This document shows, piece by piece, positions 1 through 32,417 of a stretch of 32,417 nt of DNA. The DNA lies in the IMG/VR virus record IMGVR_UViG_3300045988_085672; one strand, written 5' to 3'. Made by a program: the position numbers and the translations under genes. The notes under the pieces are model-generated. The model searched no databases and had not been told where the DNA came from. It saw nothing but the letters and a program-made list of their open reading frames with translations. This DNA comes from a virus. Numbering within the stretch: the first letter of the stretch is position 1; each line of letters starts with the position of its first letter.

Positions 1-77
1 AGGATCGGTTCAAGCACGTTATCGCAAAGCGAATGTTGAACAACCTTGTCTTTATAGCTGTTCGACATAACCACGCG
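1..77. repeat. Terminal overlap copy A: identical to 32341..32417, indicating circular closure of the contig
   Basis: Read directly. aggatcggttcaagcacgtt...ttcgacataaccacgcg is present at both ends, 77/77 identical. The RT reading frame continues in phase across the join. Confidence 0.95.
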
Positions 78-281
78 GCGCTTCGGCTCGTACACCTCGA
101 ACGTGTTGTACGGCGAAAGCGTGTACTTTTTCGTTTTGAGCTGGTAGCTTAACAGGTTCAGCGCTTCAAGAAGGTTTACTTCAAACTTTGCCGCCGCTCC
201 TTTCCACCTCTTGCCTTGCCGCGCCTTTCGGTAGGCTCTGTATAGGTTCTCGAAGTTATATATCTTCTCGTAATCTGTCAT
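1..281 (-). CDS. DGR reverse transcriptase, N-terminal part; continues at 32417 on the circle, joined product 351 aa
   Basis: ATG at 281 preceded by a GAGGA RBS. My translation is MTDYEKIYNFENLYRAYRKARQGKRWKGAAAKFEVNLLEALNLLSYQLKTKKYTLSPYNTFEVYEPKRRVVMSN..., with no stop down to position 1. It is in phase with ORF 31566..32414 through the 77-bp overlap. Confidence 0.9.
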   Translation of the reverse strand, partial: MTDYEKIYNFENLYRAYRKARQGKRWKGAAAKFEVNLLEALNLLSYQLKTKKYTLSPYNTFEVYEPKRRVVMSNSYKDKVVQHSLCDNVLEPI

Positions 282-448: not shown

Positions 449-550
449 AAGCGGGCGAACGCCCCTGTTCCCGTTGTAAGCGTTGTTGTTGTTCAGCGTG
501 CCATCGGAATTGACGTTGCGGACGTTCTGCGCGTTCGACGAATTAGGCGT
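449..550 (-). repeat. DGR template repeat (TR), 102 nt
   Basis: 94/102 identical to VR1 and 67/78 identical to VR2. Every mismatch is at a plus-strand T, which is an adenine on the sense (minus) strand. I counted 28 sense-strand adenines. The sense frame is Asn(AAC)-rich: SSNAQNVRNVNSDGTLNNNNAYNGNRGVRPL. Confidence 0.93.
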
Positions 551-572: not shown

Positions 573-977
573 TCACCCTCTCGCACGATCCCGCTTTTTC
601 CACGCGGCTAACATATACTTCACGTCAAGCGCAAGTTTAGACCAATATTCGCAACTGTTCGTTGATATGAAGCCCTGTTCGTGCGAAAGCTCTATGAAAA
701 ATAGAAGCTCCTTGCAATAGGTCATTGCCTTCGCTTGAAGCCTCTGCCGTTCCTTGAATTCCTGCGCGTCCAGAAGGTTTAATTCGTTCGCCTCCAGCGC
801 GCATTCGTAAATATCCACCGCTTTATCCTGTATCCTGTTCACAAGGGTAAATCGGTATTTCTTTGGGAAGCGTTCTGTCGAATTTGTGATCGTGAATGTG
901 TGCTTGATTAAATCTTTGCACTTCACGATTACGTTAAATTCCGAAGGTTCCTTTCTTCCTCGTTCCTGCCTCTGCAT
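573..977 (-). CDS. avd: Accessory variability determinant (Avd), four-helix-bundle family
   Basis: 134 aa, basic and helical. The segment FPKKYRFTLVNRIQDKAVDIYECALEAN resembles the Avd / 23S rRNA-IVS four-helix-bundle family. It lies 22 nt upstream of the TR. Confidence 0.75.
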   Translation of the reverse strand: MQRQERGRKEPSEFNVIVKCKDLIKHTFTITNSTERFPKKYRFTLVNRIQDKAVDIYECALEANELNLLDAQEFKERQRLQAKAMTYCKELLFFIELSHEQGFISTNSCEYWSKLALDVKYMLAAWKKRDRARG

Positions 978-1236
978 TTATGCACCGTCCTTTTCGTATG
1001 CGGTCGATCATAACGGTATCTTCGGCGCACCCCTCGAAATCAAAACCAACCGCCGTAACGAAAAGCGTTGCTTTGCTTCCGGTTACGGTCGTTCCCGTGA
1101 TTGTCAAAGTATCTTCGCCGCAATGCTCGCACGGCGGCGAAAGCTCGACAAACAGATTTCCTATAATGCACGATAATTCCGCCCGTGTGCAAGCGTACCG
1201 TTTTAGCATTCGATACGCTGTAAGTTCTCGTTCCAT
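934..1236 (-). CDS. Possible small hypothetical protein between the tail-fibre-like gene and avd
   Basis: 100-aa ORF (or 91 aa from Met at 1209) with protein-like composition (..ELSPPCEHCGEDTLTITGTTVTGSKATLFVTAVGFDFEGC..). The RBS is weak and it overlaps both neighbours (1203..2093 and avd). Confidence 0.3.
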   Translation of the reverse strand: MERELTAYRMLKRYACTRAELSCIIGNLFVELSPPCEHCGEDTLTITGTTVTGSKATLFVTAVGFDFEGCAEDTVMIDRIRKGRCINAEAGTRKKGTFGI

Positions 1237-2093
1237 ACGCCCGTTGTATTAACGCCGGAAAGGTCGTCAAACAGGATAAGGAACGGATTTTCGGTTATAT
1301 CGTTGAATACGACGGCTTCGATCAGATCGACGCGGGCGGAAAGCGCCGTAATCATATTCAGAAGATTTCCCGCCGTGTTTTCGTCCAGCACGTCCTGCAA
1401 GCTGTCAAACCACGTATCAAAATCGGTTTGCGCCTGTGTCTTGAAATCCGCGAAATACTCTTCCAGCGCGTCGTATTGTGTATCTCCCTGTAATTTCAAG
1501 GAATTCATATACGTAACAAGGGAATTGTATTCCGCCGCGCTGTCGCTCTGATACTCTGCGAACCACGCTTCAAGCTGTTCGTTAAATGCTTCTGTGTCGA
1601 TCTGTTCTACAACGGCGGCAACAACGCCGCAAACGGACGTATCCAGCCGCTTGTCCGTGATCCTCGATCCGGTAATTGATGTAACGCCCGCTCCGACGTA
1701 AATATCAGCCAGCGCCAATTCGTAAATATCCGCGTCCCGCTCGATATTCGGCGCGGAAGGCGAAGCGGACGGGGAAGAGGATTTCACCTTTACCGAAATA
1801 AGGCGGTTCGTCAAGTCCCAGCGGACGACAACGCGATCAATTCGGTTCAAAACGCCGTCAGCCGTCGCCAGCGTCAAGGAAAGGTCGCTTGTGTTGTCGT
1901 AGAAATAGCCATTGATCCACGCTTTTCCCGCCTTCACGGTTACTTGCATTCCGTTTCCCGCTACAACTTGAAGCCCCGTTGAAGGAACAGGGAAAACGCC
2001 GTTTCCGATGAACGAAGCGAAATACGAAGCCCAATCTTCGGCTTTATATTTCCGGTCGCCGGATACGCTGTTAAAAAAACTCGATTTTTCCAT
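1203..2093 (-). CDS. Tail fibre / baseplate-associated structural protein (hypothetical)
   Basis: 296 aa with an AAGGGGTG RBS. The N-terminus FNSVSGDRKYKAEDWASYFASFIGNGVFP recurs in Firmicutes prophage tail-tip proteins. The C-terminus is coiled-coil-like. It sits after the Gp37-like gene. Confidence 0.5.
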   Translation of the reverse strand: MEKSSFFNSVSGDRKYKAEDWASYFASFIGNGVFPVPSTGLQVVAGNGMQVTVKAGKAWINGYFYDNTSDLSLTLATADGVLNRIDRVVVRWDLTNRLISVKVKSSSPSASPSAPNIERDADIYELALADIYVGAGVTSITGSRITDKRLDTSVCGVVAAVVEQIDTEAFNEQLEAWFAEYQSDSAAEYNSLVTYMNSLKLQGDTQYDALEEYFADFKTQAQTDFDTWFDSLQDVLDENTAGNLLNMITALSARVDLIEAVVFNDITENPFLILFDDLSGVNTTGVWNENLQRIEC

Positions 2094-2105: not shown

Positions 2106-3230
2106 TTATTTTGTAATCTGACGTATTTGCGTTAAAAGCGCTGGCAAGCTCTCGCCGAAGGTAATATCTATTTCTTCAACGTTGTTTTGGTAGGTTTCCG
2201 CAATCTCCGTTATGCGAACGTCAATGCGAATTCCCCAGCGCTTATTCACGCAAGTAACGCGGTCGCCTAAATCGTAATCGGTTCGGTAGATCAGATTTGC
2301 GAAGGTGTTTACCTTTGAACCGAACGAAAGCGTTTCCGCGTACTGCTCCAATTCCTCCGCGCCTCGGGCGGCAAGAAGCGCTAAATACTCCGGATCGGTT
2401 AGCGTTACTTTTTCGCCGCCTTCCTCTTCATATTCCTGCACTATATCGGTGGCGTTTATGAATACCTCTTCGCGCGTCAATCCTGCTGCCGATCCGCCCA
2501 CTTCGGCAACCTTGCGCGCAACGCCTTCTTTCTCTTCGCCTCCGACGAACGCCGTTGTTTTTAGGTTTTCAATGCTGTTCGTGTATTCCTGTTCCACGAT
2601 GTTGTCGAATTCCTGCGAAAAGATACAAGGTGCATTCCCTGCGGTATTGCCCGCTGTAAGATCGCGCCCTTTATAGACGGAAAAGACGTGCGCGCCTGTC
2701 CTCGCGTCCGTCCGCATTCGTATTCCCAGCTTTGCCGCCTTCGCCGCCGTTTCCGCCGCAAGCTGTGCGTTCGTGTACTGCTCCGAAGTGTAGTCAATCG
2801 TTCCGCTTCCCGTGTCGCTGTCGTCGGTGGCGATTGAAACGTCCGGAATTTTCCGCGCGCTGTCGGTCGGGCTTGTTACGTTTTCCCGTACAATGCGGTA
2901 AAGAATGCTTTGCGTTGTGTCCTTTGTGATGATCTGCTTCTTGATAATCCGCTTTCCGATCCAAGCGATAAGGAATTTCCCTTGAACCTCGATTTCCTCC
3001 AGCCCCTGCGAATTCTTCGTGATATGAACGTATCGGATTTGCGCCGCTTCATCGTCGCCGCGCTTCATAATGATATTGTTTTTCACAAGCATTCGGGAAT
3101 GCTCTTCGGTGAAAGGAACAAGAAGTTTGAATTCTCCGCACGTCCAATAACGCCGCGTCCAGATCAGCGAAGCGATCTTTTCGACAATCCCTTGAAGTAC
3201 CATATCGGAAGAATAAACGTATAATTCCAT
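2106..3230 (-). CDS. Siphovirus Gp37-like minor tail / baseplate protein
   Basis: I place the start at Met52 of the tracked ORF (MELYVYSSDMVLQGIVEKIASLIWTRRYW..). ATG at 3230 lies 5 nt after the Dit stop. It resembles the ReqiPepy6 Gp37-like family from memory. Confidence 0.55.
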   Translation of the reverse strand: MELYVYSSDMVLQGIVEKIASLIWTRRYWTCGEFKLLVPFTEEHSRMLVKNNIIMKRGDDEAAQIRYVHITKNSQGLEEIEVQGKFLIAWIGKRIIKKQIITKDTTQSILYRIVRENVTSPTDSARKIPDVSIATDDSDTGSGTIDYTSEQYTNAQLAAETAAKAAKLGIRMRTDARTGAHVFSVYKGRDLTAGNTAGNAPCIFSQEFDNIVEQEYTNSIENLKTTAFVGGEEKEGVARKVAEVGGSAAGLTREEVFINATDIVQEYEEEGGEKVTLTDPEYLALLAARGAEELEQYAETLSFGSKVNTFANLIYRTDYDLGDRVTCVNKRWGIRIDVRITEIAETYQNNVEEIDITFGESLPALLTQIRQITK

Positions 3231-3234
3231 ACCG

Positions 3235-4122
3235 CTACACCCCCAAATACAAGTTATTGTGATAAATAGATACTTCGAGATTTTCCGCGTTCGTGTCCGC
3301 CGAATATCGGAAAAGATTATCACCCACGGCAAGCTGTAAGTATGAGCTATCAACGTCCAAATAGCGGAAAGCGTCGCTTTCAACGCCGCCGCTTAACAGT
3401 TTCACGGATTTTTCGCCGTACCCCGTCGATACGGTCAGCACGTCGCCCGCTTCAAGCGAAATATTCGCTTTTATGAGCTCCTGCGTATTGACGTTCAAAA
3501 GCTGTGGATTTGTCAGCGCACCCAGCGCGCGAAACTCGATCCGGATACCGCTTTTCACGTCGCCGGAATTGAATACGTTTACGATCAGCGAAGGCTGGCG
3601 GTAGCCGATTTCCCAATCCGGCGTTATCTCCAGCCCGTCCGGAACGGGGAATTCAAAGCCGCCGATCCACGTTGCTATATCCTCCCGCGTTTCCGCCTGT
3701 TCGCGCCAAAACGGATTAAGGCACGAAAGCTGGATTGTGAATTGCTCGAAAATCGTTCCGCGCTTGAAAATAGGCGCGTTGTTGATCGTGCAACCGATAA
3801 CCCGCTTGAAGTCGCCCAATTCATAAGTAAGCGTCGCGGAATACTGCGGATTTAGTATCCTGTTCAAATTACGTCGCAAGTCCTGTATTGCGATTTTGTC
3901 CCGCTCCTTGATATGTCCTACGATGTCAATATCTCGGCTTTCAATGCGGTATCCTAAATAGGTATCGCCGTCCTGCCCCATACTATTTGTTGAATAAATA
4001 GCGTTCTGAACGTCGGACAATCCGGAAACGTCCTTGAAGTTTACGTGATAAGAAGAAGCAGGGGAAAAGACAATGCTTTCCCCCCGCTCGTTTGTGTAGG
4101 TCAATTTCTCTTGTATTTTCAT
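3235..4122 (-). CDS. Distal tail protein (Dit, Sipho_tail family)
   Basis: 295 aa. The start overlaps the TMP stop (TAATG). This is the canonical position after the tape measure, and the sequence style matches Dit proteins. Confidence 0.7.
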   Translation of the reverse strand: MKIQEKLTYTNERGESIVFSPASSYHVNFKDVSGLSDVQNAIYSTNSMGQDGDTYLGYRIESRDIDIVGHIKERDKIAIQDLRRNLNRILNPQYSATLTYELGDFKRVIGCTINNAPIFKRGTIFEQFTIQLSCLNPFWREQAETREDIATWIGGFEFPVPDGLEITPDWEIGYRQPSLIVNVFNSGDVKSGIRIEFRALGALTNPQLLNVNTQELIKANISLEAGDVLTVSTGYGEKSVKLLSGGVESDAFRYLDVDSSYLQLAVGDNLFRYSADTNAENLEVSIYHNNLYLGV

Positions 4123-7052: not shown

Positions 7053-7262
7053 TTACAACCCTCCTAATATGTCGTCAATATCGGCTTCCGGCTCTTCCGG
7101 CTTGAAGCGATCCGGATTGAATTGTTTGTGTATCCTAAAAAGCGTTAAAATTTTATACGGTGTCATTCGCCATACTTCGGCTTCGCTCCACCGAAGAAGC
7201 GTAACGCCGATATAAAGAAGGCGGGCAAGGTCAATTACTCCTTGCCCGCCGCCGCGTTTTTT
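7053..7262 (-). CDS. -1 frame extension of the tail assembly chaperone (GT-type fusion product)
   Basis: The -1 frame is open from the slippery site. It reads KKRGGGQGVIDLARLLYIGVTLLRWSEAEVWRMTPYKILTLFRIHKQFNPDRFKPEEPEADIDDILGGL and stops at 7053..7055, directly abutting the TMP ATG. Confidence 0.75.
   Translation of the reverse strand, partial: KKRGGGQGVIDLARLLYIGVTLLRWSEAEVWRMTPYKILTLFRIHKQFNPDRFKPEEPEADIDDILGGL
7220..7262 (-). promoter_or_regulatory. Programmed -1 ribosomal frameshift signal
   Basis: Slippery heptamer A_AAA_AAC (7262..7256) in the zero frame gga aaa aac. A 5-nt spacer gcggc follows. Then an 11-bp perfect stem ggcgggcaagg/ccttgcccgcc (7250..7240 with 7230..7220) with a 9-nt loop that contains the G stop codon. 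Confidence 0.75.
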
Positions 7263-7633
7263 CCGTTTTCGTTGTCCTCTCCGTCGTCCTCTTCCTCTTC
7301 ATCGTCGCGGGCGGGCGGTTCTGCCGTCCCGTTGTTTCCCATCGAAAACGCTTTGAAGATAGATGATTTTACTTCAAGGAAATTGCCCGTATGAATGAGC
7401 TTGCCCACCTGTTTTTCGGTAAGCTCTTCTTCTCCGTCCTCTGCGCCCTCGTTCAAAAGCAGGGTAAGAAGCCAGCGAAGGTTTTTAATGCTGTCCTTTC
7501 CGGAAAGCGCCGTATCAAGGCGATCAAAGCCGCCGAATTTGTCTTGCATTTCGTCAATCACGTTCAAACTGAAAAGAAGATGTCTTTCCTTGTCAAGCGT
7601 GATCGGGAAGCGTCCGTCTTTAATTGCACTCAT
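7235..7633 (-). CDS. Tail assembly chaperone (G-like)
   Basis: 132 aa with an acidic C-terminus, between the major tail protein and the TMP. It carries the frameshift site near its 3' end. Confidence 0.75.
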   Translation of the reverse strand: MSAIKDGRFPITLDKERHLLFSLNVIDEMQDKFGGFDRLDTALSGKDSIKNLRWLLTLLLNEGAEDGEEELTEKQVGKLIHTGNFLEVKSSIFKAFSMGNNGTAEPPARDDEEEEDDGEDNENGKNAAAGKE

Positions 7634-7670
7634 AAAACAATAAGCGGGAAGCCGTTTCCGGCTCCCCGCT
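7634..7670 (-). terminator. Hairpin plus T-rich tract after the major tail gene (attenuator-type terminator)
   Basis: Minus strand reads agcggggagccg-gaaa-cggcttcccgct followed by tattgtttta. The stem has 12 bp with 1 mismatch. Confidence 0.45.
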
Positions 7671-7685
7671 GTACCCCCTTTCTTG

Positions 7686-8246
7686 TTATGCCGCCGCGTT
7701 GTTCGGCTCTCTTACCGTAGTAAACCACGCCGCCGCTACGCTCTCCGTAGGCAAAGCGACGTGTTCCGCCTTCCACAACCCGTCCGAACGTTTGATAAAC
7801 TGTCCGACGATCTCCGGCGTAGTAAATTCGATACTGTCGCCCTTTGTCGTGTAGTTTTCGGACGGGATCGCAAACTTCACCTTGTAAAGCCAAATGTACT
7901 TGTATGTTCCGCCCGCCTTCTTTGCGCGGAAGCCGATTGCAAAATAAGGCGGTTCGTCGGTGTCCGCTCCGTAAACCACTTTGTCGTCGTCCTGCTTCTG
8001 CCCAAGAAGGGCGGCAAGATCAACCGGAAGAAGGTCATTGACGTTCAGCGTCAATTCTCCGGATACAAATTCCTTCACTACTTCGTCGGCTCCGTCGTCA
8101 GCGTAAAGGATCGCTTCTGCAACCTCCACGGAAAGCTCCGCCGAAATTGCCTTCGCCATCTTTACAGGCGCGCCGTATTCCTCCGCGCCGTCCTCGCCAA
8201 TCGTAATAGGTGCGCGGTAAAGGTCGCGCAAACCGATTGTTGCCAT
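7686..8246 (-). CDS. Major tail protein (phi13-like family)
   Basis: Start at Met27 (MATIGLRDLYRAPI..), ATG at 8246 with a GGAGG RBS. 186 aa, in the typical position and with typical sequence style. Confidence 0.8.
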   Translation of the reverse strand: MATIGLRDLYRAPITIGEDGAEEYGAPVKMAKAISAELSVEVAEAILYADDGADEVVKEFVSGELTLNVNDLLPVDLAALLGQKQDDDKVVYGADTDEPPYFAIGFRAKKAGGTYKYIWLYKVKFAIPSENYTTKGDSIEFTTPEIVGQFIKRSDGLWKAEHVALPTESVAAAWFTTVREPNNAAA

Positions 8247-8250
8247 ATTC

Positions 8251-8580
8251 TTATACCTCCATATACTTAAATTCCACGGGAATATGATAATAACCCGTGC
8301 TTTCCTCGAACACTTCCGGATCAAACGTGATCCCGTAGAACCCCGCTTCCTTCAATGCCCGCTTTGCGCTCCGCATAAGGGCGATATAATCTACGCGGGA
8401 ATAAATATCCGCCCTGTACGTGAATTCCTCCGCGCCGCTTTCATCGTCTGAAAAGTGTTTGTCCTGCAATACGACAATCTGATACGTGATAAACGTTTTT
8501 GCCTTTCCGTCGTATTTCAGCCGTTCTACGGGACAACCCAGCTTTTCAAGTGTTGTTTTCACAAGTGTATCAACGTTCAT
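8251..8580 (-). CDS. Tail terminator / tail completion protein
   Basis: 109 aa, lying between the HK97 gp10-like protein and the major tail protein. Confidence 0.5.
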   Translation of the reverse strand: MNVDTLVKTTLEKLGCPVERLKYDGKAKTFITYQIVVLQDKHFSDDESGAEEFTYRADIYSRVDYIALMRSAKRALKEAGFYGITFDPEVFEESTGYYHIPVEFKYMEV

Positions 8581-17611: not shown

Positions 17612-18367
17612 TCAGCTTTTGCCGTCCTTTGCCGCTCGTTTGCGTTTCCGCTTCGGCGGCTCTAACACATACTTAAAATAAAGGTATCCATACTTTGTGC
17701 TTTTCGTTTCTACTAATATATAGCCCTTCGGCGGGCGCGGCGGCTTGCTCTCTGTGTAAATCCTTTTCGCAACGGTTGGCGTTTCCCGTTCCGGCTTCCG
17801 CGCGTTGCGCGTCTGCTTCCAACGGTGTCCGCCCTGCTCCGGTGTCCAATGGTCGAAAAGGTAATTCGCAAGCCCCGTGTAATCCTGTCCGTGATCTACG
17901 CCGTCGTAATAATTGTGTTCGCGTAGATGGTCGATCCGGACGATACTTCCGTAAATCCATTGTTTCTTGATCGCTTCTTCCGGTACGCCGTCCGAAAGCA
18001 TATGCGCGTGAATTCTGTTCGTGTTCTTGCCGCGTCCTAAATAAATAAAGATCACGGCATCGGGGAAAGCGTATTTCAGCCGCCGCACGAATAGATCGCG
18101 TATCCGCTTTGCTTCCTTGAAGGTATGTACTTCGTTTTCGTCGTCCAGCGTCAGCGTGCTATATAATGAACGCGGGGAAAAGTTTTCATTTACCAGCCGC
18201 GCGTGTTTTCTTCTTGATATTCCGATCCGGTGTTGTTCCCGTTTTTCCTCTGTCTTAAATCGCGGGCGCGGTTCGGCTTTCTTTATATCGGTAAGCCTGT
18301 CCGATATGTTGAAAACTTCCTGTTCGCATACAGCGCCCGAAAATATCCTTCTTTTTACTCTCTGCAT
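17612..18367 (-). CDS. HUH-type rolling-circle replication initiator (Rep)
   Basis: 251 aa. Motif I-like YSTLTLD, HUH motif RIHAHML, and Tyr motif DYTGLANYLFDH, in the canonical order. Confidence 0.6.
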   Translation of the reverse strand: MQRVKRRIFSGAVCEQEVFNISDRLTDIKKAEPRPRFKTEEKREQHRIGISRRKHARLVNENFSPRSLYSTLTLDDENEVHTFKEAKRIRDLFVRRLKYAFPDAVIFIYLGRGKNTNRIHAHMLSDGVPEEAIKKQWIYGSIVRIDHLREHNYYDGVDHGQDYTGLANYLFDHWTPEQGGHRWKQTRNARKPERETPTVAKRIYTESKPPRPPKGYILVETKSTKYGYLYFKYVLEPPKRKRKRAAKDGKS

Positions 18368-19034: not shown

Positions 19035-19658
19035 TTACCTTCCTTCCCCGAAAACCTCTTCTGGCTGAACGTCCCACGCCGCCGCAATATGCTTCATCAT
19101 ATCCACCGCTTCGGCGCGTTTCTTCATATCCCCGTCAAGGTAAGATTTCAAGATTTCAGATTTCAGAACACAAAGCGGGCGAACGCCCCCGTCCCCGTAG
19201 CAAGCGCTGTAGTAGCTCAGCGTGCCACCGGAATAGACGTTGCGGACGTAAGAATTTTTCGGGCTGTCCGGTGTAGCCGTCCACCACCAAGCGTCCGGAA
19301 GCTCCGGAATGTTGCCGCGAAGAAGCCTGTATTCGTCGCACGTGATAAGCCCGACGCGGACGCGATCGCCGCCGTAGTCCTTCAAACCGTCGTCGGCTGT
19401 CAAGTCTATATCGAAATGCTCGAACATTTCTTCCGGCGCGCCCGCTCCGATCAACTTTTGCAGGAATTCGCCGTTCAAGAACGCGCGAATATCAGACGCG
19501 GCGAAATCGTTTCGGTTCTGCGCGTCAAAAGCGCCGTTTCCGATACACTCCGAAGCAATGCACTTCACCCAGCTTTCGGCGGTCTGAATGATTGTGAATG
19601 CGATCCCGCCGATCGTGATTTCCTGTTTCGGCGCGAAGCCGTGTTTGTTCTCTGTCAT
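19035..19658 (-). CDS. DGR target protein 2 (DUF6273-like / C-type-lectin-like variable domain), 207 aa
   Basis: Start at MTENKHGFAPKQ.. (ATG 19658). It contains ..WWWTATPDSPKNSYVRNVYSGGTLSYYSACYGDGGVRPLCVLKSEIL.., which is paralogous to the VR region of target 1. VR2 is embedded at aa ~137..162. Confidence 0.85.
   Translation of the reverse strand: MTENKHGFAPKQEITIGGIAFTIIQTAESWVKCIASECIGNGAFDAQNRNDFAASDIRAFLNGEFLQKLIGAGAPEEMFEHFDIDLTADDGLKDYGGDRVRVGLITCDEYRLLRGNIPELPDAWWWTATPDSPKNSYVRNVYSGGTLSYYSACYGDGGVRPLCVLKSEILKSYLDGDMKKRAEAVDMMKHIAAAWDVQPEEVFGEGR
19173..19250 (-). repeat. DGR variable repeat 2 (VR2), 78 nt
   Basis: It aligns to TR 449..526. There are 11 mismatches, all at TR plus-strand T (sense A). 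Homology stops abruptly after position 78. Confidence 0.9.
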
Positions 19659-19714
19659 ATTGAAAAGCCCCTTTCTTATATATAATAGGTATATCCGCAC
19701 CCGCTCGCGGGCGT

Positions 19715-20047
19715 TTAACACTTCTTGCCGCCGTGTCGATACGGGCGGCTTTTGTTGTATTCGTGCTTCTGCGAAATTGCCGCGTCAATGTCAATTCCCG
19801 CATATCCGCAATAATCAAGAACGCGGATAATCACGTCGGCAAGCTCGATCGGTATTCCTTCCGGCTTCCCGTTGTTTCCGGTGTAAACCTCCGTAGGCAA
19901 GCGCCCGTTGCGGTATTCCTCCAGCGCTTCGGATACCTCCGAATGAATGAGCGCCAGCACTTCGGGAAAGCCGCGTTCTTCGTCCCACCAGCCGTGATCG
20001 ACGGCGTTTTCGTGAATTTGCCTTGCAACCTCGTTAATTCCTGTCAT
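19715..20047 (-). CDS. MazG-like nucleotide pyrophosphohydrolase
   Basis: Start at MTGINEVARQIHENAVDHGWW.. The segments ..LIHSEVSEALEEYR.. and ..ELADVIIRVLD.. give the EExxE and ExxD style motifs. Confidence 0.75.
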   Translation of the reverse strand: MTGINEVARQIHENAVDHGWWDEERGFPEVLALIHSEVSEALEEYRNGRLPTEVYTGNNGKPEGIPIELADVIIRVLDYCGYAGIDIDAAISQKHEYNKSRPYRHGGKKC

Positions 20048-21907: not shown

Positions 21908-22151
21908 CTTCCGCCACCTCGCTTTCGTCTGCGTCGTCCCGCTCCGCAATCGGCGAAAGGTCAACGCGGGGAACGCGGATCGCCAGCGCGATTTGACAAC
22001 CGCAACGCGGACAATCAATCGCATTGAAGCGGGTAGGCGGTTTCGTTAAACACTCCGTAAACCCGCGCGGCTCTTCCGCAATGTAGATTTCTTCTTTTGT
22101 CGGCGTTACGCGGTATCCGCATACGCCGCACGTCTTTTTCTTTGTAAACAT
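21897..22151 (-). CDS. Zinc-ribbon hypothetical protein
   Basis: 84 aa with CGVCG and CPRCGC pairs. It has the conserved GGAGGGCTATTCAATATG initiation region. Confidence 0.6.
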   Translation of the reverse strand: MFTKKKTCGVCGYRVTPTKEEIYIAEEPRGFTECLTKPPTRFNAIDCPRCGCQIALAIRVPRVDLSPIAERDDADESEVAEDED

Positions 22152-22172
22152 ATTGAATAGCCCTCCTTTTGT

Positions 22173-22487
22173 CTAATATCTGCCGTAAACCCGAACGACG
22201 GTGAAGGGCTTGTCCGCCTTCGTCGCCGTTACGATCGCCGAAGTCATAAAGGATACGCGCAAGAAATCCCGCGCCGCCCGTTTTGCAAGCCTCCACGTAA
22301 TCATTCGCGCGTTAGGTTCCTGCATTGCGTCGCCGTCCAGCGGATACTCGCAAATAAGAACCGTGTTCCCGAACGGTCGCCGCGCTGGGCGTTCCTTCAT
22401 AAATTCTTTGTTGCCCTCTTTGCACTTCACAATTTCAAGCGCCTTCGGAAACTGCCATCCGCAGTCCTGCTTCTTTTCTTTTGCCAT
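22173..22487 (-). CDS. Hypothetical protein
   Basis: 104 aa with an AAAGGGG RBS. Confidence 0.55.
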   Translation of the reverse strand: MAKEKKQDCGWQFPKALEIVKCKEGNKEFMKERPARRPFGNTVLICEYPLDGDAMQEPNARMITWRLAKRAARDFLRVSFMTSAIVTATKADKPFTVVRVYGRY

Positions 22488-22505
22488 TGTTCGCCGCCCC
22501 TTTCT

Positions 22506-22760
22506 TCAAAGCTGAACTAAATTCAAAACCGCAAGAAGCCGATCCGTAATCTGCTTCCGGCGCAACTGCTTCAATATCGTTTCTTCGTTTGCGTCGTAGT
22601 TTTCTGCAAGCGTTACGAAATACTTCAATTCCGGATTTGCCCTTTGCCGAATCCCAAGACAGAAAAGAAGGTGATCCGTTACTTCCGCTTTGATCGGATA
22701 AACGGCAATTTCTCCCGTGTTCTTGTCGATTTCTCTACAAACGCATATCATTTCGCCCAT
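22506..22760 (-). CDS. Hypothetical protein
   Basis: 84 aa with a GAGAGGGG RBS. Confidence 0.5.
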   Translation of the reverse strand: MGEMICVCREIDKNTGEIAVYPIKAEVTDHLLFCLGIRQRANPELKYFVTLAENYDANEETILKQLRRKQITDRLLAVLNLVQL

Positions 22761-22774
22761 ATCCGCGCCCCTCT

Positions 22775-24600: not shown

Positions 24601-24629
24601 ATGTTACTTCTTTCATTGCTAAAAGTCAA
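24601..24629 (-). promoter_or_regulatory. Candidate promoter for the HTH gene
   Basis: Minus strand reads TTGACT, 17 nt, TAACAT. Confidence 0.4.
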
Positions 24630-24670
24630 GAGTAAAAGCAGAAAAAACTAAAATTATTTTTTATGCACTT

Positions 24671-25705
24671 TTACGCGGCGGCAATATGGACGGTGAACAA
24701 GTCGTTTGAAGTCGCATATCCTAAAATTTCGCGGGGATAATTATTGATCCAAGCTTCGACGCGCCGAATATATGCGGCGGTTACTTTCCGGAAGTCCGTT
24801 CCTTTTGGAAGGAACCGCCGTATCATTTTGTTTATATTCTCATTCGTTCCTCTCTCGAATGCGCTGTAAGGGTGGCAATAGTAAGCCTTCGTGCGCTTCC
24901 GATCCTTCCCGTAAACAGAACGTTCAATTCCGGCGCAGTCTGCGAATTCTGATCCATTGTCAAACGTAATGCTTTTGAATATCCTCGAAAATCGTTTCCC
25001 GTAACGCCGTTCCAGCTTGTTCAACGCCGCCACAATGCTTGCGGAAGTCTGATCCGGTATCTTCATAATGATTTCTTGCCGTGTCAACCGTTCCGAAAGC
25101 ACAAACAAGGCTTCCTTTGTCTTTTTCTTTCCGCATACGCAATCGCCTTCCCAATGCCCGAAGGTTTTTCGCTCTCCGATCTCCGGATCGCGTCTTTCTA
25201 TGCTTTCGCCCGCCGACGTGCGGGCGGATTTTTTGCGATCCACCTTGTCGTACTTCCTTTTGCGTTTTCCTTTTTCCGGCAAATTCTCGCGGCTGATCCC
25301 GTAAAATATTCCTTTGTCTATGTAATTATAAATCGTCTTTTCGCTGATCTCTGTTTTGAAGGTCAGCCCCAGCCGTTTAATTTCTCCGACAACGGCGGCG
25401 GGGGAATAACCTTCTTCGCCGATTTTCTTTTCGATAAAGGCGGCTAATTCGTAATCATTCCCGATCTTCAAGTCGCCGCCTTTCGCTTTTAGGTTTTCTT
25501 CATAGCGTTGTTGTGCGATTTCCGGCGAATAGCGTTCTTCCGTCGTTAAGTCGGAATTCAAATGCGTATAGGTTCCTCGCTTGATTTCTCTGTATATAGT
25601 TGTGTTATGGACGTGCAGACGGTCAGCGATCTTGCAGGGCTTCAAGCCCTCTTTCAACGCTTTTTCGATTTTAAGGCGATCTGTCCACGTTAAGTGCTTG
25701 TGCAT
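24671..25705 (-). CDS. IS30-family DDE transposase (possible phage integrase function)
   Basis: 344 aa with an N-terminal HTH (LTWTDRLKIEKAL..IADRLHVHNTTIYREIKRG). The catalytic triad context is HWEGD, FDNGSEF and ERGTNEN. A GGAAGGAGG RBS precedes the ATG. Confidence 0.88.
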   Translation of the reverse strand: MHKHLTWTDRLKIEKALKEGLKPCKIADRLHVHNTTIYREIKRGTYTHLNSDLTTEERYSPEIAQQRYEENLKAKGGDLKIGNDYELAAFIEKKIGEEGYSPAAVVGEIKRLGLTFKTEISEKTIYNYIDKGIFYGISRENLPEKGKRKRKYDKVDRKKSARTSAGESIERRDPEIGERKTFGHWEGDCVCGKKKTKEALFVLSERLTRQEIIMKIPDQTSASIVAALNKLERRYGKRFSRIFKSITFDNGSEFADCAGIERSVYGKDRKRTKAYYCHPYSAFERGTNENINKMIRRFLPKGTDFRKVTAAYIRRVEAWINNYPREILGYATSNDLFTVHIAAA

Positions 25706-29284: not shown

Positions 29285-29848
29285 TTATGTCTCCCTTCCT
29301 GTTACTTCTTCCCATTGCCACAAGGAAGGCGTATCGGGCGGATACACGCAATTTGGCATATCCGCTTTTGCAAGATAGACTTTTCCTTTGTAGCTGTAAT
29401 ATTTCCCGTTCTGGACGTTTACGACGATCCCCGCCGTTTCCGGATAGGGGATCGGATCGTCAATCGTTCCCGTGTGTGTAAGCTCCACAAGGCGGTAATA
29501 AGCGAAGGTCGTTTCAACGGGATAGGAAACGGCGTTCGACGTGTGCGCGGCGATAATCTCGTAATATCTCCCGTTATACTTGATGATTTCGCCCACAGTG
29601 TTATAGGCGTGCGCGTCCTCGTATTCCGGATATTCGATAACCTCCGCCGATTGCAGGATCATAGCGTCGGAAATGATGTTCGTTTTTGCCGCGCGATCCT
29701 GTGCGATCTGCGCCTTGAACGACAACGCAAGAAGGGCGGCGGTACTTTCGCCCGCTGTCTTTACTTCTTGTGTTTCTTTCTTTACTTCCTGCAATTCCTT
29801 CTTGATTTCCGCGTTTCCGCCGCCGTCTTTGTTATGTTTCACGCTCAT
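29285..29848 (-). CDS. Putative carbohydrate-binding (CBM5/12-like repeats) protein coupled to DGR target 1
   Basis: 187 aa. The ATG overlaps the target-1 stop (ATGA). It has two aromatic-rich repeats: ..YNTVGEIIKYNGRYYEIIAAH.. and ..KYYSYKGKVYLAKADMP..PSLWQW.. Confidence 0.4.
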   Translation of the reverse strand: MSVKHNKDGGGNAEIKKELQEVKKETQEVKTAGESTAALLALSFKAQIAQDRAAKTNIISDAMILQSAEVIEYPEYEDAHAYNTVGEIIKYNGRYYEIIAAHTSNAVSYPVETTFAYYRLVELTHTGTIDDPIPYPETAGIVVNVQNGKYYSYKGKVYLAKADMPNCVYPPDTPSLWQWEEVTGRET

Positions 29849-31581
29849 TCAAAATTACCTCCGATCCCCGATACCCAGCACGCGGTCAGCGCGTCGCCGC
29901 GCTCCACGGTTACGCGGATATTCAAGCCAAATTGAACCGCCGTGTTGGTTTTGTTCTTGAACACGTGCGCCAGTCCTGCGATAACTGCGTTTGTGCAATC
30001 CTCCCAAATAGGCGCTACGTCGTAAGGATTGTTGCACGCTTCAACCTTAAACGTGCCGCCCGCCGGAATATCCCTGTTTACTTTGATATTGCACCGCGTC
30101 GGCTGTCTGTTTGCCTCCAGCGGCTCCGAAAGGGAAATTACAAAGCTGTTGATCGCCTTTGTGAACGTGAGTGTTCGCGTTGCGCTGTTTCCGGCGCTAT
30201 CGGTCGCGACAATCTCGATCGTGTGCTGGGCGTTTGTCAATCCCGTAAACGTGTTCCCGCTTACGGAAAGGGTAAGCGTTGCGCCCAGCGCGATATTATT
30301 TCGCGTGTTGAACGTGCTTCCGTCGATCTTTTCTACAACGTTTACAACGTCCTTATCCGGATCAGTAACGCTATATTCATAGGTGAAATCCTCTCGCTTC
30401 ACGCCAAGATCAGCGTTCTGCCCGCTGATAACGGGCGGCTGATTGTGAATTACCGCGATCGCTCCGCTTGTCGTGTACGCGGAAGAATTGCCCGCCGTGT
30501 CAACCGCCTTCACGCGGTATTGCAGGGTGTTCCACGCCGTCGATACCATTTCCGAAAATGTGCGCGCGGCGGAACTCTGAACCTGTGTCCACGATCCGCT
30601 GTTTGCGCTCCGCTCGAAAACATAGGTCAGCGCATCGCCGTCCGGATCGGTCGCCGCCGCGCAAGAAATTTCGATATTCTGCCCGCTGTAACATTGTTTC
30701 GGCGCTGTAATGCTGGGTGGCGCGGAAGGCGCGGCGTTGTAGATGATTTCATAATTCCCGCTTGAATTCGGATTGTCAGATACCAAGATTGAAGATTTCA
30801 GATTACAAAGCGGGCGAACGCCCCTGCTCCCGTTGTAAGCGCTGATGTAGTTCAGCGTGCCATCGGAATTGACGTAGCGGACGTACTGCGCGCTCGACGA
30901 ATGAGGCGTGCGAAGCCACCAATACCAGCCCTTTGAAGTTGTAAAATTGCTGTTTGTGTATTCCGAATTGCTTACGCATTCCGGCGTAGGATAGGCGACG
31001 CGGGAAGCGTCGTTGCTGAATAGGGCAAGGCGTGTGCCTTCTGCGATCCCGTTTTCGTTTGCAAGCCCCACTTCGGTGGTAGATGCAAGAAACATTTTCG
31101 CCGTGAAGGTTTCATAACTTCCGCCGTCCGTCGAAGATTTTACGACGGTAAGCGTTGTGTTCATAAGCTCCGCAACGAATTTCGGATCAAGCATAGCAAG
31201 GAAGCCCGCCCAAGCGTCGTATTCGTTGTAGTTGTCCCATACGTTCGCATTCGTCGGCGGCGCGTCCTGTCCGTGCTTTGCGCTGTACCATTTGCCCGCC
31301 GCCGCGTTGCTGTTCAGCCATTGCAAAATGTTTGAATGAATATGCCTGTTGTTGCCGTAATTCTTCCGGTCGCTGTTGCTGTTGCTCGGTTCCTTTGCGT
31401 CCGAACACATAAGCTGGATAATCTTTTCGGCGATCAGCGTAACGGAATTCGCCGGATACCCGCTATGGTTCTTGTCCGCAATCTTGAATACGATCTTCGC
31501 ACCGAAGCGCGATTGATACGCCGGAAGAACCGGAACTTCGATTTTTGTTCCCACGGCAAGGGAACTTAATGCTTTTGACAT
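29845..31581 (-). CDS. DGR target protein 1: tail-fibre/receptor-binding-like protein with an N-terminal DUF6273-like variable domain and C-terminal FN3/Ig-like domains
   Basis: 578 aa from MSKALSSLAVGTKIEV.. (ATG 31581, AGGAGG RBS 7 nt upstream). It overlaps the RT stop by 16 nt. VR1 lies at aa ~225..258 (..WYWWLRTPHSSSAQYVRYVNSDGTLNYISAYNGSRGVRPL..). About 320 aa of beta-rich repeats follow. Confidence 0.85.
   Translation of the reverse strand: MSKALSSLAVGTKIEVPVLPAYQSRFGAKIVFKIADKNHSGYPANSVTLIAEKIIQLMCSDAKEPSNSNSDRKNYGNNRHIHSNILQWLNSNAAAGKWYSAKHGQDAPPTNANVWDNYNEYDAWAGFLAMLDPKFVAELMNTTLTVVKSSTDGGSYETFTAKMFLASTTEVGLANENGIAEGTRLALFSNDASRVAYPTPECVSNSEYTNSNFTTSKGWYWWLRTPHSSSAQYVRYVNSDGTLNYISAYNGSRGVRPLCNLKSSILVSDNPNSSGNYEIIYNAAPSAPPSITAPKQCYSGQNIEISCAAATDPDGDALTYVFERSANSGSWTQVQSSAARTFSEMVSTAWNTLQYRVKAVDTAGNSSAYTTSGAIAVIHNQPPVISGQNADLGVKREDFTYEYSVTDPDKDVVNVVEKIDGSTFNTRNNIALGATLTLSVSGNTFTGLTNAQHTIEIVATDSAGNSATRTLTFTKAINSFVISLSEPLEANRQPTRCNIKVNRDIPAGGTFKVEACNNPYDVAPIWEDCTNAVIAGLAHVFKNKTNTAVQFGLNIRVTVERGDALTACWVSGIGGNFE
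30808..30909 (-). repeat. DGR variable repeat 1 (VR1), 102 nt
   Basis: It aligns to the full TR 449..550. There are 8 mismatches, all at TR plus-strand T (sense A). Confidence 0.93.
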
Positions 31582-32417
31582 TTTTCCGCCTCCTTTGAAT
31601 TGAAAAGCCTGTTGTAATAGTGATCCGTTCGCCGGATCAAGTGATAACAATTTCCCTTTGCGGCGTGTCCCCGCCAGCTTTTGTAAGATTGTTCGACGGT
31701 CGCCGTTATGATTTTGCCCCGCTCCACAAGTCCGCGCATTTTCTTCAATTTGCGCTTCATATTGTTCTTGCTTCTGCGGCGCACCTTCCGGATTACCGCG
31801 CCCGTTTCGGTCAAGTAAGTGTGAAATCCCAAGAAATCCACCCCGTTCCGAAGCGGGTAAATGTTCGTTTTGTTGTTCAAGGACAAGCCGATCGCGGCAA
31901 CGTGTTTTTCGATCTCCGCGCGGCAATACTGCAAATAGGCTTTATCTTCGTGTATCAAGAAGAAATCGTCCATATATCTTCCGTAGTATTTAATGCCAAG
32001 CTTTTCCTTGATGAAGTGATCTAAATTATTGAGGTAAAGAAGGGCGAAAAGCTGTGAAGATTGATTGCCGATCGGAATTCCGACGTTCCCTTCTGTGCTG
32101 TCGATTATCATTTCGACAAGCCACAAAACGTCCGGATCGGTTATCTTCCTGCGGATTAAGGTTTTTAACACGTCGTGCCTAATGGAATAGAAGTATTTTG
32201 ATATATCACCCTTCAATATCCACCCGTCAATCCCGTTTTTACGGTAAAACCTCCGCAAGAATTCTTGAAGCCTGTCTAACCCGTAATGCGTACCTTTGCC
32301 CACTTGCGAAGCGTAGTTATCCGTTATGAACGATCTTGTAAGGATCGGTTCAAGCACGTTATCGCAAAGCGAATGTTGAACAACCTTGTCTTTATAGCTG
32401 TTCGACATAACCACGCG
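31566..32417 (-). CDS. DGR reverse transcriptase, C-terminal part (continues from 1..281 on the circle)
   Basis: The motif IGNQSSQ is the DGR-clade [I/L/V]GxxxSQ signature. The catalytic box is YMDD (RYMDDFFLIHED). The C-terminal segment ..SYKSWRGHAAKGN.. is also present. Confidence 0.92.
   Translation of the reverse strand, partial: RVVMSNSYKDKVVQHSLCDNVLEPILTRSFITDNYASQVGKGTHYGLDRLQEFLRRFYRKNGIDGWILKGDISKYFYSIRHDVLKTLIRRKITDPDVLWLVEMIIDSTEGNVGIPIGNQSSQLFALLYLNNLDHFIKEKLGIKYYGRYMDDFFLIHEDKAYLQYCRAEIEKHVAAIGLSLNNKTNIYPLRNGVDFLGFHTYLTETGAVIRKVRRRSKNNMKRKLKKMRGLVERGKIITATVEQSYKSWRGHAAKGNCYHLIRRTDHYYNRLFNSKEAEKCQKH
32341..32417. repeat. Terminal overlap copy B (identical to 1..77)
   Basis: Read directly, 77/77 identical. 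Confidence 0.95.

What the first reader, a model, noticed from the sequence alone, without database searches (positions are those of the whole stretch)
30808..30909. VR1 lies in the middle of its 578-aa target, followed by ~320 aa of Ig/FN3-like domains, instead of at the C-terminus
VR1 aligns with the whole TR (102 nt). There are 8 mismatches, all at TR adenines. VR1 encodes SSSAQYVRYVNSDGTLNYISAYNGSRGVRPL, against the TR-encoded SSNAQNVRNVNSDGTLNNNNAYNGNRGVRPL. In most described DGR targets the VR forms the extreme C-terminus of a C-type-lectin-fold domain. Here the variable DUF6273-like domain is N-terminal (VR at aa ~225..258). The protein continues with two beta-rich repeat domains (..TDPDGDALTYVFERS..YRVKAVDTAGNSS.. 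and ..SVTDPDKDVVNVV..IEIVATDSAGNSATRTLTF..) and a further C-terminal domain. If the C-terminus anchors the protein to the virion, the fibre polarity would be inverted relative to typical siphophage fibres.
Basis: partly seen in the sequence, partly recalled or inferred. Interest (0 to 1): 0.75.

Follow-up and report, generated by a model that had tools for sequence, protein, structure and literature searches.

The report
Known DGR target: a phage tentaclin
The hypervariable repeat really does lie in the middle of a 578-residue gut-phage protein, but this layout of a variable lectin head, an Ig-like stalk and a conserved C-terminal domain is the already published "tentaclin" ("Hoc-like") family of retroelement targets, so the finding is real but not new.

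Summary
VR1 (30808-30909, minus strand) matches the 102-nt TR (449-550) with 8 mismatches, all at TR adenines. It encodes residues 225-258 of one uninterrupted 578-aa ORF (31581..29845). In 66 related loci, TR and VR1 differ at 895 of 1888 adenine sites and at 29 of 4844 other sites, so the DGR is active at this internal position.

The architecture is not new. The protein is 80% identical to target1 of phage nd12, a founding member of the "tentaclin" family (Baykov 2023, PMC10743442). That family has an N-terminal C-type-lectin/DUF6273 head carrying the VR, 1-4 Ig-like domains, and a conserved C-terminal Ig-like "anchor". PHROG 10993 ("Hoc-like head decoration") matches end to end. Cornuault 2018 had already reported such DGR targets.

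The VR still sits at the C-terminal edge of the lectin domain; extra domains simply follow it. The "inverted polarity" idea is the same as the published C-terminal-anchor hypothesis and remains untested.

My additions:
- The tail is siphovirus-type.
- Oscillospiraceae isolates carry the prophage.
- There is no similarity to T4 Hoc.
- A gene ending in a conserved ~45-aa motif lies upstream of tentaclin genes in 129 of 137 loci. This favours attachment to the tail rather than the capsid.

The parts
29845..31581 (-). DGR target1, a tentaclin of 578 aa plus stop
   Evidence: Continuous ORF with an AAGGAGG Shine-Dalgarno 8 nt upstream of the ATG. PHROG 10993 matches 1-578 at E 1e-197. 80.5% identical to phage nd12 target1.
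30793..31449 (-). DUF6273 (C-type-lectin-like) head, residues 45-263
   Evidence: Pfam PF19789 at E 2e-34, covering profile positions 1-172 of 172. Sequence match to the N-terminal DUF6273 domain of the T. ramosa IgA protease, PDB 9qa6, E 2e-10. My AF2 model of this domain is low confidence.
30808..30909 (-). VR1, residues 225-258
   Evidence: 102 nt, 8 mismatches to TR, all at TR adenines. Hypervariable across homologues.
30448..30729 (-). Ig/FN3-like domain 1, about residues 285-378
   Evidence: AF2 pLDDT about 85-97, all-beta. Foldseek matches tandem FN3/Ig arrays.
30154..30435 (-). Ig-like domain 2, about residues 383-476
   Evidence: Pfam Big_13 and Big_9 below threshold. AF2 pLDDT above 90. 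PDB 31he 'tail fiber protein' at E 8e-5 over residues 367-486.
29848..30147 (-). Conserved C-terminal beta-sandwich (tentaclin 'anchor') ending IGGNFE-COOH, residues 479-578
   Evidence: AF2 pLDDT 90-95. 968 clusters (at 50% identity) match at E<=1e-3, and the domain is terminal in 140 of the 150 best. Invariant N, D, P, W, E, T, N, G in alignment A6. 41-43% identical to nd4, Brigit and Mushu.
449..550 (-). Template repeat (TR), 28 adenines
   Evidence: It lies between Avd and RT.
573..977 (-). Avd accessory protein, 134 aa
   Evidence: PHROG 3206 'Avd protein of DGR' at E 2e-29. Pfam bAvd below threshold.
31566..32417 (-). DGR reverse transcriptase, 3' part. The gene wraps the circular contig; 351 aa in all.
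   Evidence: ORF reconstructed across the 77-nt terminal repeat. It contains the YMDD and IGNQSSQ motifs and is 85% identical to the nd12 RT.
1..281 (-). DGR reverse transcriptase, 5' part (start codon at 281). Positions 1-77 repeat 32341-32417.
19035..19721 (-). DGR target2, 228 aa. VR2 is at 19173-19250; only the last 78 nt of the repeat match TR.
   Evidence: 11 mismatches in those 78 nt, all at TR adenines. Pfam DUF6273 C-terminal part at E 1e-9, PHROG 9958.
1203..2093 (-). 296-aa virion protein encoded after Dit and Tal. Its last ~50 residues (about 1206-1364) form the conserved motif ..FNDIT.NPF..F..L.G...TGVWN..LQRIEC-COOH, the candidate docking partner of the tentaclin.
   Evidence: PHROG 1220 and 5339, virion structural. 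The motif is shared with otherwise unrelated upstream proteins in nd4, Brigit, Toutatis, Mushu and IMG/VR loci. It is found upstream in 129 of 137 loci.
934..1236 (-). 100-aa ORF between the motif protein and Avd
   Evidence: PHROG 21058 at E 3e-18. Homologues sit at the same position in nd4, Brigit and Mushu.

Best explanation
The 578-aa protein is a tentaclin, the main target of an active diversity-generating retroelement in a temperate, nd12-like siphovirus of gut Oscillospiraceae.

Shown here: the cassette on the minus strand is Avd, TR, RT, target1. TR-derived cDNA with adenine-specific errors repeatedly replaces VR1. VR1 encodes the last ~34 residues of an N-terminal DUF6273 (C-type-lectin-like) domain, so about 13 residues of that domain are randomised. 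Behind this head lie three beta-sandwich domains. The last one is a family-wide conserved module that ends the polypeptide with IGGNFE-COOH.

Inferred: the C-terminal module fixes the protein to the virion, and the two middle Ig-like domains act as a flexible stalk. The diversified lectin head is then the distal tip that binds ligand. This is an N-out, C-in polarity.

Inferred more weakly: the attachment site is on the tail, not the capsid. The candidate site is the conserved ~45-aa C-terminal knob of the short fibre-like protein encoded just upstream. That would make the tentaclin play the role that Mtd plays on the fibre tips of Bordetella phage BPP-1.
For: DGR parts and activity:
- TR and VR1 differ only at adenines, in this window and in 66 related loci.
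- The RT has YMDD and IGNQSSQ motifs, and an Avd is present.
- Variability in homologues is concentrated at residues 227-253.

Family assignment:
- Pfam DUF6273 covers 45-263.
- PHROG 10993 matches end to end.
- 80% identity to nd12 target1 and 46% to nd4 target1. The whole window is about 80% identical in DNA to nd12.
- The published definition of tentaclins is met.

Stalk and anchor:
- The AF2 model has three confident beta-sandwich domains, which resemble tandem Ig/FN3 adhesin stalks.
- The C-terminal domain is found in 968 clusters and is terminal in 140 of the 150 best.
- It accompanies heads other than DUF6273 in some proteins.

Tail rather than capsid:
- In this window, nd4, Brigit, Toutatis, Mushu and Emery the gene always follows the last tail or baseplate genes. 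It is never next to capsid genes.
- The capsid types differ: lambda E-like in nd4, Mu-like in Mushu, HK97/PF05065 here. So do the tail types: sheathed in nd4, Mushu and Brigit, unsheathed here.
- The one constant neighbour is an upstream protein ending in the same ~45-aa motif. It is present in 129 of 137 loci, directly abuts the tentaclin gene where no DGR intervenes, and gives only 2 stray hits in about 2 Mb.
- In nd4 and Brigit that neighbour has a sub-threshold match to Pfam Phage_tail_fib N-terminal.
- All 11 phage records (of 50,697) that hold the motif also encode a tentaclin.
- There is no similarity to T4 Hoc.
Against: - No experiment locates any tentaclin on a virion; I found none in six papers.
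- Gene adjacency may only mark the edge of a mobile fibre-tip, chaperone and DGR module. It need not reflect a physical contact.
- Many of the 137 loci are close relatives, and the motif HMM was rebuilt from hits in the same set, so the count overstates independent support.
- Emery gp25 and Dulem virus 33 carry the C-terminal domain without a detectable motif protein.
- My AF2 model of the lectin head is poor (pLDDT below 50 over the VR). The C-lec fold and the surface hairpin therefore rest on Pfam and on the published models of the 80%-identical nd12 protein.
- A preprint finds the Mushuvirus homologue expressed from the prophage and present in an extracellular vesicle fraction without visible virions.
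Confidence: 0.6

Rival explanations
1. [quoted passage not shown] The C-terminal domain binds the capsid lattice, and the Ig stalk displays the diversified lectin head from the head surface, for example for adherence to mucus glycans.
For: PHROG 10993 and the GenBank records of FP_Brigit, FP_Mushu and FP_Toutatis name it 'Hoc-like head decoration'. T4 Hoc also has N-terminal Ig domains and a C-terminal capsid-binding domain (established knowledge; discussed in PMC10743442). Cornuault 2018 proposed mucus binding. An anchor that binds a generic HK97-fold surface could explain its occurrence with unrelated tails.
Against: There is no sequence or profile similarity to T4 Hoc: BLASTP E 0.058 over 21 residues, and hhalign probability 0.07% for the C-terminal domain. 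The 'Hoc-like' name is an analogy of architecture only. The gene is never next to capsid genes and always ends the tail module. The capsid protein families differ among carriers. The conserved neighbour looks like a tail fibre. A profile of the C-terminal domain finds no solved capsid decoration protein.
Confidence: 0.2
2. It is not a stable virion component. It is made, also from the prophage, and released as a free or vesicle-associated adhesin that benefits the lysogen. The conserved C-terminal domain would then serve export or cell-surface retention.
For: The preprint 10.64898/2026.05.08.723808 reports transcription and translation of the Mushuvirus homologue in lysogen cultures. It also reports the protein in an extracellular vesicle fraction without visible phage particles. 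DUF6273 also heads a secreted bacterial IgA protease.
Against: In every phage examined the gene sits inside the late structural and lysis block, on the same strand. Here it overlaps the RT stop and is translationally coupled to the next gene. The preprint is not peer reviewed and concerns a homologue that aligns only to residues 265-578, at 29-34% identity. I did not test for a signal peptide.
Confidence: 0.12
3. It is a gene-model artefact or a relic. Either the downstream Ig-like domains belong to a separate gene, or the TR/VR similarity is an inactive leftover.
For: I found no evidence for it.
Against: There is no stop or frameshift between residue 258 and 578. More than 100 homologues at 81-96% identity keep the 578-581 aa length. 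Distant relatives (nd4, Brigit, IMG/VR loci) align over the full length. 62 distinct VR1 sequences occur in 66 loci, with changes almost only at TR adenines.
Confidence: 0.02

Closest known systems
Tentaclins: target1 of gut phages nd12 and nd4 (Baykov et al. 2023, PMC10743442)
   Same: Same lineage: 80.5% aa identity to nd12_tgt1 and about 80% DNA identity over 81% of the first 25 kb of the window. Same cassette, same two-target layout, and a TR with 28 adenines. Same topology: DUF6273/C-lec head with the VR, three Ig-like domains, and a conserved C-terminal Ig domain.
   Different: This is a different species-level genome, with its own VR1 and VR2 sequences. The paper calls nd12 a small myovirus with a sheath gene. 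Neither this window nor the nd12 GenBank record shows a sheath gene; both show Dit, Tal and a phi13-type major tail protein. The paper found no nd12-like prophage, whereas I find them in Oscillospiraceae isolates.
'Hoc-like' DGR targets of Faecalibacterium phages FP_Brigit, FP_Mushu and FP_Toutatis (Cornuault et al. 2018, PMC5883640)
   Same: Homologous C-terminal domain (35-43% identity) and Ig-like domains. The gene order is the same, with the target directly after the RT at the end of the tail module.
   Different: These are sheathed myoviruses with P2- or Mu-like baseplates. Mushu aligns only from residue 265. That paper stated that VRs lie at the 3' ends of genes and did not note the internal position.
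Mtd of Bordetella phage BPP-1, the prototype DGR target
   Same: A C-type-lectin-type variable domain with the VR at the C-terminal edge of the fold. It is diversified by an Avd-TR-RT cassette through adenine mutagenesis and is thought to be the distal receptor-binding element.
   Different: In Mtd the VR ends the protein, and attachment to the fibre is through N-terminal domains (established knowledge; restated in PMC10743442). Here the order is reversed: the head is N-terminal and the presumed anchor is C-terminal. I detected no sequence similarity.
T4 Hoc
   Same: A string of Ig-like domains with the virion-binding part at the C-terminus, so an N-out, C-in polarity.
   Different: No detectable homology. 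Hoc has no lectin head and is not a DGR target. Capsid location is proven for Hoc and unknown here.
Invasin and intimin type bacterial adhesins
   Same: An Ig-like stalk plus one C-type-lectin-like binding head. Foldseek finds adhesin-type tandem arrays such as SiiE. The analogy is drawn in PMC10743442.
   Different: In those adhesins the lectin domain is C-terminal and the anchor N-terminal. They are not diversified by a DGR.

Membership tests
Tentaclin family (Baykov 2023) | N-terminal C-type-lectin (DUF6273) domain | tested here: met
   Pfam PF19789 at E 2e-34, residues 45-263, full profile. The fold itself is not confirmed by my model, which has low pLDDT there.
Tentaclin family (Baykov 2023) | The VR encodes a surface beta-hairpin of the lectin domain | tested here: inconclusive
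   The VR maps to the last 34 residues of the DUF6273 match. AF2 pLDDT is below 50 over 225-254, so the hairpin rests on the published model of the 80%-identical nd12 protein.
Tentaclin family (Baykov 2023) | [quoted passage not shown] | tested here: met
   Three beta-sandwich domains at 285-378, 383-476 and 479-578, with pLDDT above 85. Foldseek hits to tandem FN3/Ig arrays over about 320 columns.
Tentaclin family (Baykov 2023) | C-terminal Ig-like domain with the family consensus in the last 100 residues | tested here: met
   Alignment A6 has invariant N40, D44, P47, W49, E50, T53, N66, G98 and the terminal IGGNFE. 41-43% identity to the nd4, Brigit and Mushu C-termini. The paper's logo figure could not be read, so the match is to its named members.
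Diversity-generating retroelement | TR/VR pair differing only at TR adenines | tested here: met
   8 of 8 mismatches at A for VR1, and 11 of 11 in the 78-nt VR2. 895 changes at A against 29 at non-A across 66 loci.
Diversity-generating retroelement | DGR-type reverse transcriptase next to the TR | tested here: met
   351-aa ORF with YMDD and IGNQSSQ, starting 168 nt downstream of the TR. 32-85% identical to the RTs of nd12, nd4, Brigit and Mushu.
Diversity-generating retroelement | Avd accessory protein | tested here: met
   PHROG 3206 at E 2e-29. Pfam bAvd scores 30.2 bits, below its 40-bit cut-off.
Diversity-generating retroelement | Hairpin or cruciform downstream of the VR | tested here: not met
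   DNA folds of the 90 nt spanning each repeat end are no better than shuffles (z +0.46, +0.52, -0.37). Only a short GGGCG-TT-CGCCC palindrome inside the 3' end of all three repeats is visible. This element is not universal among DGRs.
T4 Hoc family (capsid decoration) | Sequence homology to Hoc, including its C-terminal capsid-binding domain | tested here: not met
   BLASTP best E 0.058 over 21 residues. hhalign of the C-terminal profile against Hoc gives probability 0.07%. No T4-like phage is among the 32 tblastn records.
T4 Hoc family (capsid decoration) | Bound to the capsid surface | not testable with these tools
   This needs virion proteomics, immuno-EM or cryo-EM. No such data appear in the papers read.
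Mtd-type DGR target | The VR forms the extreme C-terminus of the protein | tested here: not met
   320 residues follow VR1. Target2 is closer to this type, with 45 residues after VR2.

The most novel reading that the evidence does not exclude
Tentaclins are plugged onto phage tails through a dedicated two-gene module. A short fibre-like protein has a phage-specific N-terminus and a constant ~45-aa C-terminal knob (..NPF..F..L.G...G.WN....RIEC-COOH). This knob docks the conserved C-terminal Ig-like domain of the tentaclin. DGR cassettes (small ORF, Avd, TR, RT) were inserted between the two genes. The pair moves as a unit between siphoviruses and myoviruses. I did not find this partner gene described in the tentaclin paper.
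Probability: 0.3. Interest if true: 0.5.

Novelty: already known. Interest (0 to 1): 0.2.

Why it matters
Tentaclin-type targets are among the most abundant hypervariable proteins of the human gut virome. Single clusters at 90% identity hold up to about 18,000 distinct sequences. Where they sit on the particle, and what they bind, decides how these DGRs should be read: as changing host range, as changing adherence to mucus or immune cells, or as serving the lysogen.

This window adds no new principle, because its internal-VR architecture was published for the same phage lineage. Three things are useful for the open question:
- Cultured Oscillospiraceae isolates carry the prophage, so experiments are feasible.
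- "Hoc-like" is shown to be only a label.
- A conserved upstream partner gene gives a concrete, testable docking hypothesis.

Tried and rejected
- AF2 with a shallow alignment (32 sequences at 81-96% identity) gave pLDDT 53.9, with only the two middle domains confident. Adding nd4-like and Brigit-like sequences rescued the C-terminal domain but not the lectin head. The hypervariable VR probably degrades the alignment there.
- Foldseek against PDB and BFVD returned only generic tandem Ig/FN3 arrays. The exception was one 42%-identical uncharacterised viral protein, H7BW95. This says nothing about where the protein sits on the virion.
- A profile of the C-terminal domain against all PDB sequences gave no hit better than E 1.9.
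- The third homologue search, seeded with FP_Brigit, returned only 98-99% identical sequences and added almost no diversity.
- DNA folding found no significant hairpin downstream of VR1, VR2 or TR.
- Rfam found nothing in the window.
- One of three extra locus scans seeded with distant C-terminal domains found nothing.
- The DUF6273 domain of the T. ramosa IgA protease offered no functional clue. Its removal did not change catalysis.
- Looking for a virion protein shared by all carriers failed by sequence. Only RT, Avd, the small ORF, the tentaclin and the terminal motif are shared.
Full report
**Observation.** The window is a circular contig of about 32,340 bp; positions 1-77 repeat 32341-32417 exactly. 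One 102-nt repeat family has three copies: 449-550, 30808-30909 (92% identical) and 19173-19274 (75%). Read on the minus strand, the copy at 449-550 is adenine-rich (28 A) and is the template repeat. VR1 differs from it at 8 positions, and every one is a TR adenine. That is 8 of 28 A sites against 0 of 74 other sites, Fisher p = 1.4e-5. The target ORF starts at the ATG at 31581, which has AAGGAGG 8 nt upstream. It runs without interruption to the stop at 29845-29847, giving 578 aa with VR1 at residues 225-258.

**The retroelement.** On the minus strand the order is as follows:
- Avd, 977..573 (PHROG 3206, E 2e-29).
- TR, 550..449.
- A 351-aa reverse transcriptase that starts at 281, wraps the contig junction and ends at 31566. 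It has YMDD and IGNQSSQ motifs.
- Target1, which starts at 31581 and overlaps the RT stop.

A second target, 19721..19035 (228 aa), carries VR2. Only the last 78 nt of VR2 match TR, with 11 mismatches, all at adenines.

1. Gene model. There is no stop or frameshift after the VR. More than 100 homologues at 81-96% identity are 578-581 aa long. Distant relatives align over the full length.
2. Population diversity. I recovered TR and VR1 from 66 related IMG/VR and bacterial-genome loci. TR and VR1 differ at 895 of 1888 adenine sites but at only 29 of 4844 other sites, and 62 of the 66 VR1 sequences are distinct. In an alignment of 32 homologues, column entropy is 1.27 bits inside residues 225-258 and 0.33 outside. 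The most variable columns are 227, 230, 232, 233, 236, 238, 244-247, 250, 252 and 253, which are the AAC/AAT codons of TR.

The DGR is therefore active on this internal site across the lineage.

**Domain architecture.** Pfam places DUF6273 at residues 45-263 (E 2e-34, full profile). Big_13 and Big_9 match below threshold at 380-474. The VR is therefore still at the C-terminal edge of the lectin-type domain, as in canonical DGR targets; what differs is that the polypeptide continues. AlphaFold2 with a shallow alignment modelled only the middle of the protein. With nd4-like and Brigit-like sequences added, it gave three confident beta-sandwich domains at 285-378, 383-476 and 479-578 (pLDDT about 85-97). 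The head stayed poorly modelled, with the VR below pLDDT 50. Foldseek matches tandem Ig/FN3 stalks such as SiiE, contactins and titin over about 320 columns.

**What it is.** PHROG 10993, "Hoc-like head decoration", matches residues 1-578 against profile positions 1-556 of 556 at E 1e-197. tblastn against 50,697 phage records gives:
- phage nd12 at 80.5% identity over the full length;
- nd4 at 46%;
- Faecalibacterium phages FP_Brigit, FP_Toutatis, Lelie and FP_Mushu over the C-terminal two thirds or less.

The first 25 kb of the window is about 80% identical in DNA to nd12 over 81% of its length. Baykov et al. 2023 (PMC10743442) described exactly this case. nd4 and nd12 have DGRs with two targets, and target1 has its VR "close to the 5'-end". 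It encodes an N-terminal DUF6273/C-type-lectin domain with the VR as a surface hairpin, three Ig-like domains, and a C-terminal "anchoring" Ig domain with a consensus motif. They named the family tentaclins, found it in more than 350 metagenomic phage genomes, and analysed 13 nd12-like genomes whose TR has 28 adenines. Cornuault et al. 2018 had already listed "Hoc-like" DGR targets in Mushu and Brigit. Later papers repeat the assignment. The finding is therefore real but already known.

**Polarity and anchoring.** My data are consistent with it. A search of 1.84 billion representatives with residues 478-578 finds 968 clusters at E<=1e-3. In 140 of the best 150 the domain is at the extreme C-terminus, usually ending IGGNFE. 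Eight residues are invariant in 41 diverse copies. Only 47 of 81 diverse carriers match DUF6273; a few have other heads. This fits a generic attachment module. No paper I could read locates the protein on a virion.

**Capsid or tail.** "Hoc-like" is only a label. BLASTP against T4 Hoc gives E 0.058 over 21 residues. A profile of the C-terminal domain aligns to Hoc with probability 0.07%, and no solved structure matches that profile.

Gene order argues for the tail. In this window the late genes on the minus strand run TerL, portal, protease, capsid (PF05065), adaptor, tail terminator, major tail protein, chaperone, tape measure, Dit (Sipho_tail plus SPP1_Dit), Tal (Sipho_Gp37), a 296-aa virion protein, a 100-aa ORF, Avd-TR-RT, the tentaclin, a CBM_5_12 protein, a 99-aa ORF, and the endolysin. 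In nd4, Brigit, Toutatis, Mushu and the DGR-less Brevibacillus phage Emery, the homologue likewise follows the last baseplate or fibre genes. These phages have different capsid protein families, and both sheathed and unsheathed tails.

**A conserved partner gene (new here, as far as I can tell).** I compared all late proteins of the window with nd4, Brigit and Mushu. Only RT, Avd, the 100-aa ORF, the tentaclin and the last ~50 residues of the 296-aa protein are shared. That tail end has the motif ..FNDIT.NPF..F..L.G...TGVWN..LQRIEC-COOH. It terminates otherwise unrelated proteins of 100-300 aa immediately upstream of the cassette.
- tblastn of the motif against the 50,697 phage records finds 11 records, and all of them encode a tentaclin.
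- Using an HMM on 170 related loci, the motif ORF lies upstream on the same strand within 5 kb in 129 of 137 loci with enough sequence. That is 89 of 92 with a DGR and 40 of 45 without. There are only two stray hits in about 2 Mb.
- Where no DGR is present, the motif ORF abuts the tentaclin ORF with a gap of 0-110 nt.
- The nd4 and Brigit versions have sub-threshold matches to Pfam Phage_tail_fib N-terminal, and RefSeq calls the Brigit one a tail fiber protein.

I read this as a short fibre whose constant C-terminal knob may dock the tentaclin. There are caveats. Many loci are close relatives, and the HMM was refined on the same set. Adjacency may only reflect a shared recombination module. 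Emery and Dulem virus 33 lack the motif.

**Other points.** The tail genes are siphovirus-type and no sheath gene is present. The nd12 GenBank record likewise lists a phi13-type major tail protein and no sheath, although the paper calls nd12 a myovirus. Relatives of the target are integrated in genomes of Hominicoprocola fusiformis, Neglectibacter caecimuris and other Oscillospiraceae. Their homology to the window stops at about 24621, just beyond an IS30-family transposase gene.

**Verdict.** Interest is low for the finding itself. The partner-gene lead is the only potentially new element.

Noticed in passing
window 1203-2093 (-), motif at about 1206-1364; also L096 18190-18939, L098 31755-32483, L173 5477-5863, L097 31773-32084, L176 5277-5939, L243 3633-4076: A ~45-aa C-terminal motif (..NPF..F..L.G...G.WN....RIEC-COOH) ends otherwise unrelated 100-300 aa proteins encoded directly upstream of tentaclin genes, with or without a DGR in between. 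It is present in 129 of 137 loci, and all 11 phage records that hold it also encode a tentaclin. It is a possible docking partner or short tail fibre. The tentaclin paper does not mention it.
   Followed up: partly
window 2106-8324 (-); OR777946.1 10127-10687: The tail module is siphovirus-type: major tail protein PHROG 88, tape measure, Sipho_tail/SPP1_Dit, Sipho_Gp37, and no sheath gene. The nd12 GenBank record also lists a phi13-type major tail protein and no sheath. The published text, however, calls nd12 a small myovirus with a sheath gene.
   Followed up: partly
window 24621-25705; loci L083, L086, L089, L090, L091: nd12-like prophages occur in cultured Oscillospiraceae (Hominicoprocola fusiformis CLA-AA-H269, Neglectibacter caecimuris M00184, strain CM18GR_63), although the 2023 paper found none. 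In all five bacterial loci, homology to the window ends at about 24621, just past an IS30-family DDE transposase gene (24671-25705). I identified no other recombinase, so this one may act as the integrase.
   Followed up: partly
window 19035-19721 (-): The second DGR target lies about 11 kb from the cassette, next to the replication initiation gene (17612-18367) and not in the structural module. Only the 3' 78 nt of the repeat match TR. VR1 and VR2 also share sequence just beyond the repeat (TGT..TCTGAAATCT, encoding C.LKS).
   Followed up: partly
window 1-77 and 32341-32417: An exact 77-nt terminal direct repeat shows the contig is circular or circularly permuted. The RT gene is split by the contig ends.
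   Followed up: yes
window 29285-29848 (-): A 187-aa protein with a CBM_5_12 carbohydrate-binding module starts in an ATGA overlap with the tentaclin stop codon, which suggests translational coupling. It is conserved in nd12 (77% identity) and lies between the tentaclin and the lysis genes. Its function is unknown.
   Followed up: no
window 5271-5534: Two tandem 132-nt copies (73% identical) lie inside the tape measure gene, and they are in frame (132 = 44 codons).
   Followed up: no
window 30793-31449 (-); PDB 9qa6_A residues 33-271: [quoted passage not shown] It could serve as an experimental template for the tentaclin head. The published work assigns that domain no function.
   Followed up: partly
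L171 7369-9318 (Brevibacillus phage Emery gp25); L172 8722-9219 (Dulem virus 33): The tentaclin C-terminal domain also occurs without any DGR. Emery gp25 (649 aa, with an Ig_Rha78A_N domain) occupies the tail-fibre position after baseplate J and XkdT-like genes. In Dulem virus 33 the domain is in a 165-aa protein of a siphovirus.
   Followed up: partly
L098 9953-10771 (FP_Brigit record 21952-22770): FP_Brigit has a second protein ending in the same C-terminal motif (HMM E 5e-20). It is encoded far from the DGR, just upstream of the portal gene.
   Followed up: no
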